This document shows positions 4,971 to 11,179 of a DNA stretch of 25,011 bases, piece after piece. The stretch's first letter is position 1. Every line of letters starts with the position of its first letter. The notes beneath the pieces were generated by a model, which was not told the origin of the DNA, did not search any database, and saw nothing but the letters and a program-made list of their open reading frames with translations. The position numbers and the translations under genes are program-made. Where the stretch lies: IMG/VR virus record IMGVR_UViG_3300023284_002989; one strand, 5' to 3'. Origin of the DNA: a virus.

Positions 4971-5225
4971 ATGAAACGTCGATCCATTCTCGGTGCTGCC
5001 CTTGCGGCGATTGCGCTTCCATTCCAGAAGCTGTTCAGGCGTAAGCCACGTGACATTGTGTTTCCTGTCATTCGCAACGCAGATTACGGAATGTCGATGG
5101 ACGAGATCATGCGGGATGTGCATTTCGATATGCAGCACATCTACGATTGGAAAGCGCGCCAAACAACCGACAAGGACAAGCTGTTAGACGACAAAGATGC
5201 GGTGTGCACGGTCTTCAAGGTCTGA
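4971..5225 (+). CDS. small exported protein, twin-arginine-like signal
   Basis: N-terminus MKRRSILGAALAAIALP (RR plus a hydrophobic h-region). 84 aa. Confidence 0.65.
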   Translation: MKRRSILGAALAAIALPFQKLFRRKPRDIVFPVIRNADYGMSMDEIMRDVHFDMQHIYDWKARQTTDKDKLLDDKDAVCTVFKV

Positions 5226-5354
5226 TACAGTGGGGCCAATCCGGTGAGGTTCTGCCTCGATTGCCTTGCCGGGGTTGTCTACAGGGTGAGGTGACTCTGA
5301 GACGACACAGGTTGTGCTTCCAGACGTGGAAGGCAATCCTGTGATTACAATCCA

Positions 5355-5397
5355 CAGGGTCCCTCTACCAATTCCAAGAGGGACCCTGTTTTCTCTT
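5355..5397 (+). terminator. rho-independent terminator
   Basis: Perfect 12-bp stem CAGGGTCCCTCT (5355-5366) / AGAGGGACCCTG (5377-5388) with a 10-nt loop, followed by TTTTCTCTT. Confidence 0.8.
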
Positions 5398-5425
5398 GCG
5401 GACACATTTGCGGAGGTGGTAGGTT
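5396..5425 (+). promoter_or_regulatory. conserved promoter cassette, copy P2
   Basis: -35 TTGCGG, 18-nt spacer ending GTGG, -10 TAGGTT (5420-5425). ATG at 5432, only 6 nt past the -10 (leaderless geometry). Confidence 0.65.
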
Positions 5426-5431
5426 GTGGCG

Positions 5432-6013
5432 ATGGGAAATGAAATTGGAAGACGCGCTGTTCTAAAAGGGGCTACGTTGGGTGCTGCCGCTATCGCTGCA
5501 GCACCTGCAATTGCTGCAGAGCAAGAAAACCCCTACCGCCTCAAAGTCACGAAGAAAGACGGCAAGACCCACATCTCCGGATTGCTGATCCGGCGTGGGG
5601 AGGTGTGGCCCAACGGTGATGTCATCTCACCCGAGTGCGAGATCGATACCTCCGGGTTGGTTGCGCGTGGATGGGCACATTTGGGAAGGCGTGCTGTATC
5701 CGGGCAGATTGTCGGGGAGCCGATTGCCTGTGTCGAAGATACAAACCCACCAGGCGATGTTCGGCTGACGTGTCTCCTGTACAGCGGTGTTCCTGCTGGC
5801 GAGGCGTTGCTCGCTCTGTACGATGCGGGCGAGCCGATTGTCTACGGGCCTATCGGTACCATCACGGGTGCTCACTGTGACGGGGTAGGGTACGCTGTCC
5901 GAGACAGCATTCGCGTCAACAGCGTCCAGTTCCTTTCCCACCTGGGAAGTCGTGCTGCACCCACCCGGTTGCACAAGATTGCCATCCCACGGCGGTGGCC
6001 GGATTGGTTCTGA
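5432..6013 (+). CDS. exported protein, twin-arginine-like signal
   Basis: ATG at 5432 (the track GTG at 5426 lies inside the promoter). MGNEIGRRAVLKGATLGAAAIAAAPAIAAE. 193 aa. Confidence 0.7.
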   Translation: MGNEIGRRAVLKGATLGAAAIAAAPAIAAEQENPYRLKVTKKDGKTHISGLLIRRGEVWPNGDVISPECEIDTSGLVARGWAHLGRRAVSGQIVGEPIACVEDTNPPGDVRLTCLLYSGVPAGEALLALYDAGEPIVYGPIGTITGAHCDGVGYAVRDSIRVNSVQFLSHLGSRAAPTRLHKIAIPRRWPDWF

Positions 6014-6030
6014 TCGAGCCTGGGGTAATT

Positions 6031-6264
6031 GTGGGAACTAAGACTGGGAAATTGAATCTCGATATCGTGCGTGACTACCCGGTAGGGGCGCGGTTAGGCA
6101 AGGAGTCAGGTATTGGTAAAGGGCTGCACTGCAATGTACTGCGGCATTTTATCAGTAGCTACGGTACTCACGAGATCGAGTTGCAGTGGAGCAACGGAGA
6201 CAAGAACAGTTGGACTGCGGTGGGGGTTGCCAAAGATCTGCAGGCAGAGACGCTGGAGTTCTGA
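6031..6264 (+). CDS. PVG-family small protein #2 (ETLEF tag)
   Basis: GTG at 6031 was chosen by analogy with paralog 3660 (GTKTGKL vs SETGKL); the track start is 5995. IVRDYPVGARL...HCNVLRHF...LQWSNGDKNSWTAVGVAKDLQAETLEF. Confidence 0.65.
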   Translation: MGTKTGKLNLDIVRDYPVGARLGKESGIGKGLHCNVLRHFISSYGTHEIELQWSNGDKNSWTAVGVAKDLQAETLEF

Positions 6265-6407
6265 TGCACTACTGCAAGCTGTGTTTCCAACTCGTCTATC
6301 GGCTTCCCGCCGTGTTCATGACGTACAAGCACCCCAGAGGATCAACCTGTCAGTGGGCAACGCACACTCTCACGAATGCTGAGATCACCGAAGCGATGGA
6401 GTTCTGA
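6264..6407 (+). CDS. 47-aa Cys protein with EAMEF C-terminal tag
   Basis: ATG at 6264 overlaps the upstream TGA (TGATG). MHYCKLC...STCQWATHTLTNAEITEAMEF. The C-terminal 19 aa align with 1678-1902. Confidence 0.55.
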   Translation: MHYCKLCFQLVYRLPAVFMTYKHPRGSTCQWATHTLTNAEITEAMEF

Positions 6408-6409
6408 GA

Positions 6410-9293: not shown

Positions 9294-9531
9294 CAGGCGT
9301 ACTGGAATCATCGCGGGGAACTTCCAGCAGTTTGTGGACTGGAGGCAGGGCAGAATGGGCACATACGTATACCTGAACAAACCCGAGAAGATTTTGTTTC
9401 TGTCCCACGGTACGCGAGTCCTCTCTGTCGGGACTGCGTACGAGCGCAAGGACTATGGCCAGTTCTTGGAGGAAGCGGAAAACAGGGGAATCACACCGAC
9501 GTGGGGATATACTGAGACGATGGAGTTCTGA
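9283..9531 (+). CDS. hypothetical protein with ETMEF C-terminal tag
   Basis: ATG at 9283 in ATGGCGACTGA, an 11-nt overlap like the ATGGGAACTGA junctions. Ends ...PTWGYTETMEF-TGA. Confidence 0.6.
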   Translation: MATDRRTGIIAGNFQQFVDWRQGRMGTYVYLNKPEKILFLSHGTRVLSVGTAYERKDYGQFLEEAENRGITPTWGYTETMEF

Positions 9532-9920
9532 TGCAGTACGTGCAGATCGGTACGTTGTGTCGCCCCCGTGTGGAAGGAACTTCGGGTTGGGTGCCGGTCG
9601 AGCTGTGGGAAAAGATCCAGGCGTACCAAGCCCCCATCGAGCAGCTGGGTAACGCTGATGCGGTGGCTTGCAGGCTGTTGAAGGAAAACGGCAACCTCGT
9701 TTCGGACGCGTTGTACACCCCGGGGAACTTGGAAACAGCCGTCCACAAGAAAATGCAGACGTTTGGGGGAGGCAACTACAGCACGATCCAGGAAGTGAAC
9801 CTGCAGCTTAGCCATCCAGATGCAGAGGGCGAACCGATTTACACCCGCACCATCGCGTTCATGAACACGGGGTTGCCCAACTACCCCGAGCTGCAGTTTT
9901 ACGAGGTTATGGAGTTCTGA
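9531..9920 (+). CDS. hypothetical protein with EVMEF C-terminal tag
   Basis: TGATG overlap. 129 aa. Ends ...PELQFYEVMEF-TGA. Confidence 0.65.
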   Translation: MQYVQIGTLCRPRVEGTSGWVPVELWEKIQAYQAPIEQLGNADAVACRLLKENGNLVSDALYTPGNLETAVHKKMQTFGGGNYSTIQEVNLQLSHPDAEGEPIYTRTIAFMNTGLPNYPELQFYEVMEF

Positions 9921-10183
9921 TGGCTGTGCACTACGGACTTTCGCAGGACGGCTTTGCAGGACTGTGCGGGGATACGGAAGAGCCGCGTCGCACAGCGATG
10001 AGAATGGTCGACTGCACGTGGTGTCTGAACATCTGCGAGCGGATCATCAACGACACCGTGGATTGGCGACACAAGAATCCGGCGTGGGGGGTACCTACCC
10101 CGGGACCACCGAAAAAGAAGAAGTCTCGCGAAGTCAAACGGCTTGAATCTCAGGTGGAAGCGCTGGTCAACGACATCGACTGA
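9920..10183 (+). CDS. hypothetical Cys-containing protein
   Basis: TGATG overlap. Contains CTWCLNIC, a PPKKKKSR basic patch and a C-terminal helix. 87 aa. Confidence 0.6.
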   Translation: MAVHYGLSQDGFAGLCGDTEEPRRTAMRMVDCTWCLNICERIINDTVDWRHKNPAWGVPTPGPPKKKKSREVKRLESQVEALVNDID

Positions 10184-10193
10184 AGTTTTACTC

Positions 10194-10223
10194 TTGCAGC
10201 CCGACCTGCTGACGTGGTATAGT
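10194..10223 (+). promoter_or_regulatory. conserved promoter cassette, copy P3
   Basis: TTTTACTC then -35 TTGCAG, 18-nt spacer ending GTGG, -10 TATAGT (10218-10223). ATG at 10235. Confidence 0.65.
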
Positions 10224-10234
10224 TTTATCTTGTC

Positions 10235-10489
10235 ATGGGAAATGGTACTGGACAGCATGTGCTCTTCGAGGAACGCACAACGGGCAAGAGCGGCAATCCC
10301 GACATTCCGGTGGGGTCGAAGTGGTTGGGATTGCATACCGGGCGGGAAGTTGTTGTCGAGAGCTGCGATGCGCAGACTGTTGTGCTGCGCTGCATGAAGG
10401 CGTCTTCGAAAAGACCTTACCATTCTATCGGGAGCACCTGGGAGGAAAGCCCAAACGACCTATTGAACTTCTTCAAGAGGCTGCCATGA
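10235..10489 (+). CDS. GQHVLFEE-family protein #2
   Basis: MGNGTGQHVLFEERTTGK...SKWLG...GREVVVESC...VVLRC...GSTWEES. Paralog of 7561-7884. Confidence 0.65.
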   Translation: MGNGTGQHVLFEERTTGKSGNPDIPVGSKWLGLHTGREVVVESCDAQTVVLRCMKASSKRPYHSIGSTWEESPNDLLNFFKRLP

Positions 10490-10707
10490 GTGGACTGAAT
10501 CCGGAGGTTGTTGAAGCCTATCCTGTGGGCGCGCGGGCCACGCGCCAGCCACACCGTGGAGGGGGTTGGGTTATGGTTACGGAGCACTACATCAATAATT
10601 ATGGGGATCACTCCATGCGGATGCACTGGTACAACGGAACCGAGAACACCTGGTCTGCCACATCGGTGCTCAAAGAGATCGACCCTCCAGAAACGATGGA
10701 GCTGTGA
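10486..10707 (+). CDS. PVG-family small protein #3 (ETMEL tag)
   Basis: ATGA overlap at 10486. VVEAYPVGARA...HYINNYGDHSMRMHWYNGTENTWSATSVLKEIDPPETMEL. Confidence 0.65.
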   Translation: MSGLNPEVVEAYPVGARATRQPHRGGGWVMVTEHYINNYGDHSMRMHWYNGTENTWSATSVLKEIDPPETMEL

Positions 10708-10708
10708 C

Positions 10709-11179
10709 ATGAAGCGAAGAACTGTACTCAAAGGTGCTCTTGTAGGAGCTGGTGTAGGGCTGCCAACGATTTCGATTGCGGCTCCTACGAGGCCGCCTAC
10801 AACTGGTGTTTGGCGCTTTGACATGCCTGAATTCAGGTGGGTGCACATGCCGCATCAGATGTTGCAGGCTGAGGATTACTACGTCTGGGCTGATATGTCT
10901 AAACATCTGGGTGACGATGGGTACATTGTCTGTCGAGTGACGAAGACGCGTGTTTACCCAGATGGTGGTGGATGGCTCGAATCTATTGCAGTGCAGAATT
11001 GCAGGCGTGTTGATCCGAGGAAGTTGCACCGAGAGGCTGTGCGGGAACCTGTGGGGTGGGCCGTCAAAGAGTTTCCTAATTGCGGGGTTATCAATCCGAT
11101 CCTCGATGACATGATCGAGCAATTGCAGGTACGAATCGATAGAATCGAAAATCGATTGCCATTCCTTCTTGACAGTTGA
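10709..11179 (+). CDS. exported protein, twin-arginine-like signal
   Basis: ATG at 10709, 1 nt after the upstream TGA, with GGAG 7 nt upstream. MKRRTVLKGALVGAGVGLPTISIAAP. 156 aa. Immediately upstream of the MVP-like gene. Confidence 0.7.
   Translation: MKRRTVLKGALVGAGVGLPTISIAAPTRPPTTGVWRFDMPEFRWVHMPHQMLQAEDYYVWADMSKHLGDDGYIVCRVTKTRVYPDGGGWLESIAVQNCRRVDPRKLHREAVREPVGWAVKEFPNCGVINPILDDMIEQLQVRIDRIENRLPFLLDS

What the first reader, a model, noticed from the sequence alone, without database searches (positions are those of the whole stretch)
4971..11179. Six small proteins with twin-arginine (Tat-like) signal peptides
Seen: the N-termini are as follows.
- MKRRSILGAALAAIALP (4971)
- MGNEIGRRAVLKGATLGAAAIAAAPAIAAE (5432)
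- MKRRTVIKAGAVVGAAFVLP (6410)
- MKRRSVLKVVVAAPVAVALPGVAVA (6761)
- MANSIENKLDRRDMLEVMATVPALAAVP (7296, degenerate)
- MKRRTVLKGALVGAGVGLPTISIAAP (10709)

Codon choices differ between copies, so the conservation is at the protein level. The mature parts differ and are unrecognised.

Established: RR-x-[FVIL]-[LI]-K followed by an A-rich h-region is the Tat export signature.

Six exported, presumably pre-folded small proteins in one element is unusual for a mobile-element gene array. The last copy sits immediately upstream of the MVP-like gene.
Basis: partly seen in the sequence, partly recalled or inferred. Interest (0 to 1): 0.55.

Follow-up and report, generated by a model that had tools for sequence, protein, structure and literature searches.

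The report
Six phage proteins with Tat-type leaders
A fragment of an uncultured, probably very large bacteriophage carries six otherwise unrelated small genes whose products all start with the same kind of twin-arginine export tag, so the phage probably sends folded proteins into its host's cell envelope, but export is untested and one or two of the six are doubtful.

Summary
Six + strand ORFs of 84-193 aa start with RR-x-hydrophobic-hydrophobic, usually K, followed by a 14-23-residue uncharged Ala/Gly/Val-rich stretch ending in a hydrophobic residue plus Pro. My motif scan finds these six and nothing else in all six frames; shuffles give 0.36 hits. All six score as coding in the stated frame. 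Their mature parts are unrelated, and the shared residues mostly use different codons.

Five of the six leaders have a Tat-signal profile as a top or only hit. Only P3 reaches Pfam's cut-off. Bacterial RR leaders match at the same rate, and Sec or TM controls never match.

P2, P4 and P6 have AxA-type cleavage sites. P1, P3 and P5 instead have a basic cluster after a short h-region. P1 matches no Tat model and has a borderline HTH hit.

The proteins are near-ORFans. P2's single homologue keeps the RR leader.

Tat-leader ORFans also occur in IMG/VR contigs, including one cluster of four. No link to the adjacent MVP-like gene was found.

Verdict: plausible Tat-type leaders on new phage accessory proteins, a new member of a known kind, of moderate interest. 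SignalP and TatP were unavailable and export is untested.

The parts
4971..5225 (+). P1, 84 aa. The leader is residues 1-18 (4971-5024), MKRRSILGAALAAIALPF, followed by the basic cluster QKLFRRKPRD. The C-terminal part is a borderline HTH. This is the least Tat-like of the six.
   Evidence: ORF. Motif scan. Coding score +0.44 in frame, against -0.46 and -0.62 out of frame. No Tat profile hit. CENP-B_N 21.1 bits against a cut-off of 21.2, and HTH_29 E = 0.009.
5432..6013 (+). P2, 193 aa, with an alternative GTG start at 5426. The leader is residues 1-29 (5432-5518), MGNEIGRRAVLKGATLGAAAIAAAPAIAA. A likely signal-peptidase site is AIA|A or IAA|E.
   Evidence: Leader hits: TIGR02811 formate_TAT 18.7 bits, TIGR01409 15.0 (cut-off 16.7), PF10399 Rieske Tat signal 13.7, PF10518 8.2. 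One homologue, P0123, at 36% identity keeps MNRRAIIK...VLP...VLA|K.
6410..6751 (+). P3, 113 aa. The leader is residues 1-20 (6410-6469), MKRRTVIKAGAVVGAAFVLP, followed by QQKKK. There is no clear AxA site.
   Evidence: PF10518 TAT_signal 23.8 bits for the leader alone (cut-off 22.7) and 21.0 for the full length. TIGR01409 15.1.
6761..7291 (+). P4, 176 aa. The leader is residues 1-25 (6761-6835), MKRRSVLKVVVAAPVAVALPGVAVA, with an AVA|S site. The C-terminus of the mature part is Cys-rich (NCKCGK...MACC).
   Evidence: PF10518 15.4 bits, E = 0.019, the only hit. It is an ORFan: only itself was found among 5.8 billion clusters.
7296..7556 (+). P5, 86 aa. The degenerate leader is residues 1-30 (7296-7385), MANSIENKLDRRDMLEVMATVPALAAVPTF, followed by MRK.
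   Evidence: PF10518 13.1 bits, E = 0.096, the top hit.
10709..11179 (+). P6, 156 aa. The leader is residues 1-24/25 (10709-10783), MKRRTVLKGALVGAGVGLPTISIAA, with an SIA|A site. The gene lies 60 nt upstream of the MVP-like gene.
   Evidence: PF10518 19.8 bits, E = 7e-4. TIGR01409 14.6. No relatives in the metagenome-contig scan.

Best explanation
The window is a complete 25-kb metagenomic contig, most likely a piece of a large, unsampled phage of a bacterial host. It carries a run of accessory genes in which unrelated small ORFan domains sit behind a common twin-arginine (Tat-type) leader.

**Proposed mechanism (inferred).** After translation and folding in the infected cell's cytoplasm, the RR-x-V/I-L-K motif and the weakly hydrophobic Ala/Gly/Val-rich h-region are recognised by the host TatBC receptor. 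The proteins are then moved across the cytoplasmic membrane by TatA, driven by the proton-motive force.
- P2, P4 and P6 have AxA-type sites after the hydrophobic-Pro element. They would be released into the periplasm or envelope by signal peptidase I.
- P3, P5 and possibly P1 have a short h-region followed by a Lys/Arg cluster (a Sec-avoidance type c-region) and no clear cleavage site. They would either stay tethered by an uncleaved leader, as Rieske-type Tat substrates do, or be processed at atypical sites.

**Likely role (inferred).** These are fast-evolving envelope-directed phage factors, for example in superinfection exclusion, receptor or cell-wall modification, or lysis timing.

**Shown:** the genes, the shared leader, its protein-level conservation and its resemblance to Tat-signal profiles.

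**Inferred:** the Tat dependence, the cleavage sites, the cellular location and the role.
For: - **Anatomy.** All six have a polar residue, then RR, then a small or polar residue, then two hydrophobic residues. Four of the six then have K. This is followed by 14-23 uncharged residues and a hydrophobic residue plus Pro at +13 to +17 after RR.
- **Non-random.** Six ORFs are found against 0.36 expected, and there are none in the other frames.
- **Selection on the peptide rather than the DNA.** 45 of 66 identical residues use different codons.
- **A shared leader on unrelated domains** is the logic of a targeting signal.
- **Profile evidence.** Tat-signal models are a top or only hit for five of the six leaders.
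  - Positive calibration: 25 of 33 bacterial leaders hit PF10518 and 14 of 33 hit TIGR01409 at E <= 0.1.
  - Negative control: 0 of 10 Sec or TM N-termini hit any Tat model at E <= 10.
- **Composition.**

| Set | LIFMW fraction of the h-region |
|---|---|
| Window leaders | 0.22 |
| Bacterial RR leaders | 0.19 |
| E. coli Sec signals | 0.35 |
| TM N-termini of this contig | 0.48 |

- **Sec-incompatible flanks.** Basic clusters directly after the h-region in P1 (RRKPR) and P3 (KKK) are poorly compatible with Sec. This rests on established knowledge of Sec avoidance.
- **Homologue.** P2's only homologue, at 36% identity, has diverged through the leader but keeps RR, K, VLP and a VLA|K site.
- **Not unique to this contig.** Canonical Tat leaders occur on small ORFans in other viral contigs, including a four-gene cluster.
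Against: - Only P3 reaches a curated profile cut-off, and only when the leader is scored alone. TIGR01409 is never reached; the best score is 15.1 against 16.7.
- P1 has no Tat-profile hit, lacks the K, and has a borderline HTH domain.
- P1, P3 and P5 lack a convincing AxA site.
- The core hydrophobicity of P1, P3 and P4 (2.4-2.7) overlaps that of the Sec signals, so Sec or SRP routing is not excluded.
- The host is unknown, so the presence of TatABC cannot be checked.
- Dedicated predictors (SignalP 6, TatP, PRED-TAT) could not be run.
- Structure predictions of P1 and P2 were unusable (pLDDT 59 and 35), so nothing is known about the folding or cofactors that would justify Tat.
- One IMG/VR ORF with a similar leader looks like a terminase large subunit, which is cytoplasmic (weak). 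Such leaders in viral contigs therefore need not always mean export.
Confidence: 0.6

Rival explanations
1. The leaders are ordinary Sec/SRP-dependent signal peptides or signal anchors. Their positively charged n-region happens to be Arg-Arg, perhaps inherited from one ancestral leader. The proteins reach the envelope unfolded through SecYEG.
For: - The core hydrophobicity of P1, P3 and P4 (2.4-2.7) overlaps that of E. coli Sec signals (1.9-2.8).
- Most profile scores are below the curated cut-offs.
- P2, P4 and P6 have standard AxA sites, which serve both pathways.
Against: - None of 10 Sec or TM control N-termini matched any Tat model, while five of the six leaders did.
- The full RR-x-hydrophobic-hydrophobic-K motif, not just the charge, is kept with different codons, and it is kept in P2's distant homologue.
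- The Leu/Ile/Phe content is low, as in Tat leaders.
- The basic clusters just after the h-region of P1 and P3 disfavour Sec translocation (established knowledge).
Confidence: 0.22
2. Some of the six, especially P1 and possibly P3 and P5, are not exported at all. The short hydrophobic N-terminus tethers a cytoplasm-facing domain to the inner face of, or across, the membrane. For P1 that would make a membrane-tethered HTH regulator.
For: - The C-terminal part of P1 gives CENP-B_N 21.1 bits against a cut-off of 21.2, and HTH_29 E = 0.009.
- P1 matches no Tat model.
- In P1 the C-terminal flank of the hydrophobic stretch is more positive than the N-terminal flank, which by the positive-inside rule favours a cytoplasmic C-terminus.
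- P1, P3 and P5 have no AxA site.
Against: - The uncharged stretches are only 14-15 residues and end in Pro, which is short for a membrane-spanning helix.
- The HTH hit is below the cut-off, and the structure model was too poor to confirm it.
- P3 is the best Tat-profile match of all six.
Confidence: 0.1
3. The RR leader is a phage-specific sorting signal rather than an export signal. It would recruit diverse cargo to a phage-built structure, such as a shell made by the adjacent MVP-like protein.
For: - P6 lies 60 nt upstream of the MVP-like gene.
- A common leader on unrelated domains is also how cargo-loading peptides work.
- One viral ORF with a similar leader resembles a terminase (E = 0.12 only).
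Against: - Five other MVP-like loci have no Tat-like ORF on the coding strand within 10-20 kb. These are L001-L003 at 46-47% identity and the huge phages LR756500 and LR756501 at 34-36%.
- The leader is indistinguishable from bacterial Tat leaders in motif and profile.
- Known shell cargo signals are unrelated to it.
Confidence: 0.04

Closest known systems
Bacterial twin-arginine (Tat) signal peptides (Pfam PF10518 TAT_signal, TIGR01409; for example E. coli TorA, SufI, AmiA, CueO)
   Same: - Polar-R-R-x-hydrophobic-hydrophobic-K motif.
- Weakly hydrophobic Ala/Gly-rich h-region of 14-23 residues with a Pro near its end.
- AxA site in P2, P4 and P6.
- Basic c-region in P1, P3 and P5.
- Bacterial proteins starting with MKRR[ST]VLK have the same look and match the same profiles at a similar rate.
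   Different: - The carriers here are 84-193-aa ORFans on a phage-like contig. The bacterial examples are enzymes and solute-binding proteins of mostly 240-690 aa.
- Only one leader reaches a curated cut-off.
- No cofactor-binding domain or Tat chaperone is recognisable.
Uncleaved Tat signal anchors of Rieske Fe-S proteins (Pfam PF10399 UCR_Fe-S_N)
   Same: - An RR motif followed by a hydrophobic stretch that is not removed and tethers the exported domain.
- This is a possible model for P1, P3 and P5, which lack AxA sites.
- The P2 leader gives a weak PF10399 hit (13.7 bits).
   Different: - There is no Rieske domain.
- The hydrophobic stretches here are shorter (14-15 residues).
- The PF10399 hit is on P2, which does have a cleavage site.
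Envelope-targeted phage accessory proteins with signal peptides or SAR domains (for example T4 antiholin RI, PMC8385771; superinfection-exclusion proteins such as T4 Imm/Sp, from my own knowledge)
   Same: They are small, fast-evolving phage proteins sent to the membrane or periplasm of the infected cell, and they are often clustered with other accessory genes.
   Different: - The known examples use Sec-type signals, SAR domains or lipoprotein signals.
- My literature searches found no described phage cluster using Tat-type leaders.
Tat-leader ORFans in IMG/VR viral contigs
   Same: - Small proteins without a Pfam domain, carrying canonical RR leaders in viral contigs.
- L097 has four such genes on one strand within 4.8 kb, with largely unrelated mature parts.
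   Different: - No sequence relationship to the window's proteins.
- The leaders are of the RRDFLK or RREFLK type rather than RR[ST]V[LI]K.
- L097 has 46.5% GC, against about 55% for the window.

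Membership tests
Tat (twin-arginine) signal peptide | Consecutive Arg-Arg in the n-region within polar-R-R-x-hydrophobic-hydrophobic | tested here: met
   All six have it: KRRSIL, GRRAVL, KRRTVI, KRRSVL, DRRDML, KRRTVL. K follows in four of the six.
Tat (twin-arginine) signal peptide | Uncharged, only moderately hydrophobic h-region of about 12-20 residues following the motif | tested here: met
   The uncharged runs are 14-23 residues. 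The LIFMW fraction is 0.22, against 0.19 in 47 bacterial RR leaders, 0.35 in Sec signals and 0.48 in TM segments. The core Kyte-Doolittle hydrophobicity is 1.8-2.7, which overlaps both classes.
Tat (twin-arginine) signal peptide | c-region with an AxA-type signal peptidase I site, often with a basic residue | tested here: inconclusive
   By inspection, P2 has AIA|A, P4 has AVA|S and P6 has SIA|A. P1, P3 and P5 have no convincing site but do have basic clusters (RRKPR, KKK, RK). No cleavage-site predictor was available.
Tat (twin-arginine) signal peptide | Match to the curated profile HMMs at their cut-offs (PF10518 22.7 bits; TIGR01409 16.7 bits) | tested here: inconclusive
   For PF10518, P3 scores 23.8 bits for the leader alone and 21.0 for the full length; P6 scores 19.8, P4 15.4, P5 13.1, P2 8.2 and P1 nothing. 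For TIGR01409, P3 scores 15.1, P2 15.0 and P6 14.6. Bacterial leaders of this type also often miss: 25 of 33 hit PF10518 and 14 of 33 hit TIGR01409 at E <= 0.1.
Tat (twin-arginine) signal peptide | Export depends on TatABC and on the RR pair, and the host has a Tat system | not testable with these tools
   The host is unknown. No experiment is possible, and no tat gene is recognisable in the window.
Lipoprotein (SPase II) signal | Lipobox with an invariant Cys at +1, directly after the h-region | tested here: not met
   There is no Cys in the first 55 residues of any of the six. The first Cys is at residue 79, 69, 58, 81, none and 75 respectively (sequences).
Sec-type signal peptide | Leu-rich hydrophobic core, and no cluster of positive charges just after the h-region or early mature part | tested here: inconclusive
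   P1 and P3 have basic clusters directly after the h-region. The Leu/Ile/Phe content is low. The hydrophobicity of P1, P3 and P4 is within the Sec range. Sec controls never matched Tat models.
N-terminal transmembrane signal anchor | About 18 or more consecutive hydrophobic residues able to form an uninterrupted helix | tested here: not met
   P1, P3 and P5 have 14-15 uncharged residues ending in Pro. P4 has 23 residues but three Pro, and P6 has 19 residues that are Gly-rich with two Pro. The true TM N-termini of the same contig look different.
Cargo of an MVP-like (vault-type) shell | Co-occurrence of leader-bearing genes with MVP-like genes in related elements | tested here: not met
   No Tat-like ORF lies on the coding strand in L001-L003 (10 kb on each side) or in L004 and L005 (up to 20 kb on each side). 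Only the MVP gene is shared with the window.

The most novel reading that the evidence does not exclude
The RR leader is used by some large phages as a general address tag on interchangeable ORFan domains, and not only for classical Tat export. In the boldest version, the tag sorts or tethers cargo to a phage-built structure, such as the adjacent MVP-like shell or a membrane-associated assembly site. That would explain a leader on an HTH-like protein (P1) and on a terminase-like ORF in another viral contig (L084).
Probability: 0.05. Interest if true: 0.8.

Novelty: new member of a known kind. Interest (0 to 1): 0.4.

Why it matters
If the leaders work as they look, this phage sends at least four, and perhaps six, different folded proteins into the host envelope through the host's Tat pathway.

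That would be a concentrated "Tat secretome" of unknown effectors in 6 kb of phage DNA. Six of roughly 70 genes is far above the roughly 1% of genes typical of bacteria (my own estimate from general knowledge).

Tat-routed phage proteins are hardly described in the literature I could search. Yet a quick pattern scan shows that small Tat-leader ORFans recur in viral metagenomes, and once as a cluster of four.

The leaders also give three practical leads:
- They indicate that the unknown host is a prokaryote with a Tat system.
- They mark these ORFans as candidates for superinfection exclusion, envelope remodelling or lysis control.
- They offer a simple experimental handle, through leader-reporter fusions, on dark-matter phage genes.

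Tried and rejected
**Homologue searches**
- P4 against 5.8 billion protein clusters returned only itself.
- P2 against 1.84 billion representatives returned itself plus one weak homologue, P0123.
- P6 in metagenome contigs, P3 in viral contigs, and the P2/P0123 alignment in metagenome contigs and genome contigs all returned nothing.
- The MVP-like protein in viral contigs returned nothing. Its exact sequence was not on record in the look-up of encoding contigs.
- A profile of paralogue family A found only the window's own copies plus one protein on a 793-bp contig. The family A alignment was too divergent for the search for related loci.

**Structure**
- Single-sequence AlphaFold2 models of P2 (pLDDT 34.7) and P1 (pLDDT 59.2) were too poor to use.
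- Foldseek with the P1 model gave only E > 2 noise.
- PDB sequence searches of P1, P4 and P6 gave nothing significant.

**Family scans**
- PHROGs gave nothing for the six proteins.
- Among 10 other genes of the contig, PHROGs gave only one family of unknown function.
- Pfam gave nothing for 10 other genes.

**Other searches**
- tblastn of the P6 leader against 50,697 phage genomes gave no match. A short, low-complexity query makes this uninformative.
- L097 neighbour proteins against phages gave no match.
- PDB searches of two IMG/VR Tat-leader proteins gave nothing.
- The promoter and terminator scan of 3400-14200 was no better than shuffles.
- Five literature searches found no described phage Tat-leader cluster. 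A sixth, on the major vault protein in huge phages, was not informative.

**Ideas considered and rejected**
- Lipoprotein signals: there is no Cys.
- A recent DNA duplication of the leader: the codons differ.
- A spanin or lysis cassette: no lipoprotein partner, no recognisable endolysin, and the mature parts are not coiled-coil dominated.
- A haloarchaeal host, where Tat dominates: the proteins are Lys-rich, not acidic.
- A link to the MVP-like gene: no co-occurrence.

Full report
**1. What the window is**

The 25,011-bp window is an entire JGI metagenome contig. The protein database holds its MVP-like protein and its P4 as singletons whose longest contig is 25,011 bp.
- Its convincing genes lie on the + strand, and GC skew is positive throughout.
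- They are small, tightly packed and often overlapping, and almost all lack any Pfam or PHROG match.
- There is one tRNA, at 22723-22797.
- The only recognisable protein is the 899-aa product of 11240-13939. It matches MVP_shoulder at 1.7e-27 and Vault_3 at 3.5e-08.
- In annotated phage genomes its only matches are three "uncultured phage" records of 462-735 kb, LR756500, LR756501 and LR756503, at 34-36% identity.
- Its closest metagenomic relatives, at 46-47% identity, sit on 74-194-kb contigs with the same phage-like one-directional organisation.
- Bacterial homologues at about 44% identity are named in Myxococcota MAGs.

I therefore treat the window as a fragment of a large, very poorly sampled phage or phage-like element of a bacterial host. 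This is an inference: no virion hallmark gene lies in the window.

**2. Checking the observation**

All six ORFs are present exactly as described.

I wrote a rule-based scan and applied it to every ATG, GTG or TTG in all six frames. It required RR-x-[FVILMAT]-[LIVMFA] within the first 18 residues, followed by at least 12 uncharged residues with mean Kyte-Doolittle hydrophobicity of at least 1.0. It returned the six ORFs and nothing else, even down to 25-aa ORFs. One hundred shuffles of the window gave a mean of 0.36 hits and a maximum of 3.

A codon-usage log-odds score trained on 17 other genes of the contig is positive in the stated frame for all six (+0.18 to +0.44). It is negative in both alternative frames, and this also holds for the mature parts alone. 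The overlapping alternative ORFs, such as 6376-6756, score negative in their own frame. Each gene has a plausible Shine-Dalgarno element.

Across the nine codons around RR, 45 of 66 pairwise identical residues are encoded by different codons. The Arg pair uses CGT, CGA, CGC and AGA. The conservation is therefore at the peptide level and not the result of a recent DNA duplication.

The mature parts show no similarity to each other or to any other ORF of the contig.

**3. What the leader looks like**

Aligned on RR, the six read as follows:

| Protein | Leader from RR |
|---|---|
| P1 | KRR-SILGAALAAIALP |
| P2 | GRR-AVLKGATLGAAAIAAAP |
| P3 | KRR-TVIKAGAVVGAAFVLP |
| P4 | KRR-SVLKVVVAAPVAVALP |
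| P5 | DRR-DMLEVMATVPALAAVP |
| P6 | KRR-TVLKGALVGAGVGLP |

The pattern is a polar residue, RR, a small or polar residue, two hydrophobic residues, usually Lys, about ten small hydrophobic residues, and then a hydrophobic residue plus Pro at +13 to +17.
- P2, P4 and P6, the three larger proteins, then have AIA|A, AVA|S and SIA|A. These are ordinary signal-peptidase I sites by the -3/-1 rule (my inspection).
- P1, P3 and P5, the three smallest, instead run into QKLFRRKPRD, QQKKK and MRK.
- None has a Cys within the first 55 residues, so lipoprotein signals are excluded.
- Other membrane proteins of the same contig have Leu/Ile/Phe-rich N-terminal segments without RR. Their genes start at 14943, 16799, 19841 and 22928.

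**4. Is it a Tat signal?**

SignalP, TatP and PRED-TAT were not available, so I used the curated Tat-signal profile HMMs with controls.

On full-length proteins, PF10518 TAT_signal gave 21.0 bits for P3 and 15.5 bits for P6, against a cut-off of 22.7. P2 gave weak hits to TIGR01409, TIGR02811 and PF10399.

Scoring the 30-36-residue leaders alone gave the results below. The TIGR01409 cut-off is 16.7 bits.

| Leader | PF10518 (bits; E-value) | TIGR01409 (bits) | Other Tat models (bits) |
|---|---|---|---|
| P3 | 23.8; 3.9e-5, above the cut-off | 15.1 | |
| P6 | 19.8; 7e-4 | 14.6 | |
| P4 | 15.4; 0.019 | none | |
| P5 | 13.1; 0.096 | none | |
| P2 | 8.2 | 15.0 | TIGR02811 18.7; PF10399 13.7 |
| P1 | none | none | |

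PF10518 was the top or only hit among 24,736 Pfam families for P3, P6, P4 and P5.

*Positive calibration.* I scanned 185,579 species genomes for ORFs beginning MKRR-[ST]-V-L-K. I recovered 47 Tat-like ORFs of at least 60 aa. Most are proteins of 240-690 aa from Proteobacteria, Actinobacteria and Acidobacteria, and several visibly resemble solute-binding proteins and enzymes. Of 33 distinct leaders, 25 hit PF10518 and 14 hit TIGR01409 at E <= 0.1. The window's rates are the same: 4 of 6 for PF10518 and 3 of 6 for TIGR01409.

*Negative control.* I used four TM N-termini from this contig and six E. coli Sec signals (OmpA, PhoA, MalE, Bla, LamB, DsbA; sequences from memory). Together they gave 0 of 10 hits to any Tat model, even at E <= 10.

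*Composition.* The comparison sets are shown below.

| Set | LIFMW fraction of the h-region | Core hydrophobicity, best 10-residue window |
|---|---|---|
| Window leaders | 0.22 | 1.8-2.7 |
| Bacterial RR leaders | 0.19 | 1.4-2.8 |
| E. coli Sec signals | 0.35 | 1.9-2.8 |
| TM N-termini of this contig | 0.48 | 2.35-3.16 |

Composition points to Tat. Core hydrophobicity does not discriminate, because the ranges overlap.

The basic clusters right after the h-regions of P1 and P3 are what the Tat literature calls Sec-avoidance features (established knowledge, not tested here).

**5. Comparative evidence**

The six are nearly ORFans.
- P4 has no relative among 5.8 billion clusters.
- Pattern-based scans for P6, P3 and the P2 family found nothing.
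- P2 has one relative among 1.84 billion representatives. This is P0123, 162 aa, E = 3.6e-4, on a 1.2-kb ENA contig that also has small overlapping genes.

The P2/P0123 alignment is informative. The mature domains share 36% identity, including RLKV, RRGE-WP, CE-D and LLAL-DA. The leader has diverged almost completely, except for RRA, K, a hydrophobic-Pro element and an AxA-type site (VLA|K) just before the conserved mature N-terminus. This is how signal peptides evolve. It shows that the RR motif is maintained.

**6. How unusual is it, and is it linked to the MVP-like gene?**

About 150 kb around five other MVP-like genes contains no Tat-like ORF on the coding strand. These are L001-L003 and the huge-phage loci L004 and L005. 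Nothing but the MVP gene is shared with the window. Adjacency of P6 to the MVP-like gene is therefore not backed by co-occurrence.

In IMG/VR (2.9 million contigs), the narrow pattern MKRR[ST]VLK[GAV][GAV] occurs once, and that hit is not a Tat-like ORF. In the window, P4 and P6 both fit it.

The pattern M-x-RRDFLK-[GAVDE]-[GAVDE] gave 35 loci.
- About 20 carry genuine Tat-like ORFs, mostly 73-292 aa.
- A Pfam scan of 28 such proteins found only TAT_signal (14 of 28 at E <= 0.001) and no other domain.
- They are therefore small ORFans too.

One 84.5-kb viral contig (L097, IMGVR_UViG_3300018080_004888) has four Tat-leader genes on one strand within 4.8 kb. They encode proteins of 170-292 aa.
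- Two of the four share a repeated domain.
- The other two resemble each other only in the leader region.

Clusters of Tat-leader ORFans therefore recur in unrelated viral contigs. My literature searches found no description of such clusters. The window's density remains exceptional. It has six such genes in 6.2 kb, and five of the seven consecutive genes between 4971 and 7556. That compares with roughly 1% of genes in typical bacteria (general knowledge).

**7. Caveats and oddities**
- P1 is the weakest member. It has no K after the motif and no Tat-profile hit. Its C-terminal 50 residues score 21.1 bits on CENP-B_N against a cut-off of 21.2, and E = 0.009 on HTH_29. An HTH DNA-binding domain would make little sense outside the cytoplasm, so P1 may be a membrane-tethered cytoplasmic protein.
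- The structure models were too poor to settle this. P1 is all-helical with pLDDT 59, and P2 has pLDDT 35.
- One IMG/VR ORF (L084, 524 aa) with the leader MNRRDFLKAAAMVTISPAVTIP looks to me like a terminase large subunit. Its only PDB match is a TerL ATPase domain at E = 0.12. It may start at an internal Met, or it may be a chance pattern hit. It is a reminder that such leaders in viral contigs are not proof of export.

**8. Best explanation and rivals**

*Best explanation (about 0.6).* Most of the six are Tat-targeted phage accessory proteins.
- P2, P4 and P6 would be released by signal peptidase.
- P3, P5 and possibly P1 would be retained by an uncleaved leader or processed atypically.
- They would act in the host envelope, for example in exclusion, envelope remodelling or lysis timing. 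This role is inferred from analogy with known envelope-directed phage accessory proteins.

*Rivals.*
- Sec/SRP signals that merely contain RR (about 0.22).
- Non-exported membrane tethers for a subset, notably P1 (about 0.1).
- A phage-specific sorting tag, for example to an MVP-like shell (about 0.04).

An artefact is effectively excluded by the coding-potential and shuffle tests.

**9. Novelty and verdict**

The leader is a known kind of signal. The proteins behind it are new and of unknown function. The arrangement, a dense island of Tat-leader ORFans in a phage, is poorly described but is not unique to this contig. I classify it as a new member of a known kind.

Interest is moderate (0.4). 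It is a clean and cheaply testable lead into phage dark matter, and a hint at an under-surveyed phage strategy. It is not a categorically new mechanism.

Noticed in passing
window 369-386, 1885-1902, 3879-3896, 6390-6407, 8601-8618, 9514-9531, 9903-9920, 10690-10707, 18011-18028 (+): There are nine exact matches to GARNNNATGGARYTNTRA against 0.01 expected by chance. All lie at the stop codon of a + strand ORF and encode E-x-M-E-[FL]-stop. In most cases the next gene's candidate start follows within 0-14 nt, often as a TGATG overlap. The GGAG inside can serve as the downstream Shine-Dalgarno element, but the conservation is longer than that. The motif occurs in unrelated ORFs as well as in paralogue family A. 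P3 and P6 lie directly downstream of such a motif. It could be a translational-coupling cassette, a module-junction repeat or a C-terminal peptide tag.
   Followed up: partly
window 3642-3896, 5995-6264, 10321-10707, 15223-15651, 17630-18028; and 7561-7884, 10235-10489 (+): There are two paralogue families of small ORFan proteins. Family A has five copies, with invariant PVG, two His and two Trp, and a C-terminus of E-T-M/L-E-F/L. Family B has two copies. They are interleaved with the RR-leader genes: P2 is followed by A, P5 by B, and B then A precede P6. Outside the contig, only one family A relative was found, on a 793-bp contig.
   Followed up: partly
window 11240-13939 (+): This is an 899-aa major-vault-protein-like gene (MVP_shoulder 1.7e-27, Vault_3 3.5e-08). 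Its relatives are at 34-36% identity in three huge-phage records of 462-735 kb, at 46-47% on phage-like metagenomic contigs of 74-194 kb, and at about 44% in Myxococcota MAGs. More than 3,000 homologues have E <= 1e-5. Its function in phages is unknown.
   Followed up: partly
window 22723-22797 (+): A tRNA gene is called tRNA-Ile with anticodon AAT by ARAGORN, and Rfam tRNA scores 48.7 bits. An AAU anticodon is unusual for bacteria.
   Followed up: no
window 4971-5225, residues 33-63 of P1: There is a borderline helix-turn-helix match behind a Tat-like leader (CENP-B_N 21.1 bits against a cut-off of 21.2; HTH_29 E = 0.009). A DNA-binding domain behind an export signal is an odd combination.
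   Followed up: partly
L097 82-4801 (- strand), IMGVR_UViG_3300018080_004888, 84.5-kb contig: Four genes on one strand within 4.8 kb begin with canonical Tat leaders: MDRRDFLKAGAALPLAG, MKRREFLGATAAAPLAAV, MNRRDFLKGTAAAGAAAVLP and MDRREFLKTSAAVGAAAMLP. Two of the four mature parts share a repeated domain, and the others are unrelated. This is a second, unrelated example of a viral Tat-leader gene cluster.
   Followed up: partly
L084 850 onward (+), IMGVR_UViG_3300005253_000560: A 524-aa ORF has the leader MNRRDFLKAAAMVTISPAVTIP. The rest of it looks like a terminase large subunit, with Walker A-like and Walker B-like motifs. Its only PDB match is a TerL ATPase at E = 0.12, and Pfam shows only TAT_signal. 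It may be a mis-called start, a chance hit or a real oddity.
   Followed up: partly
window 1648-1902 and 6264-6407 (+): These small Cys-rich ORFs carry CxxC pairs and look like zinc ribbons. Their C-terminal halves are similar (38% identity over 45 aa, E = 1e-5), and both end in the E-x-M-E-[FL] motif.
   Followed up: no
window 1-25011: GC skew is positive in every 1-kb window, with the cumulative skew rising monotonically to 3.47. All convincing genes lie on the + strand. GC falls from about 57% in the first 14 kb to about 50-53% at the 3' end.
   Followed up: no
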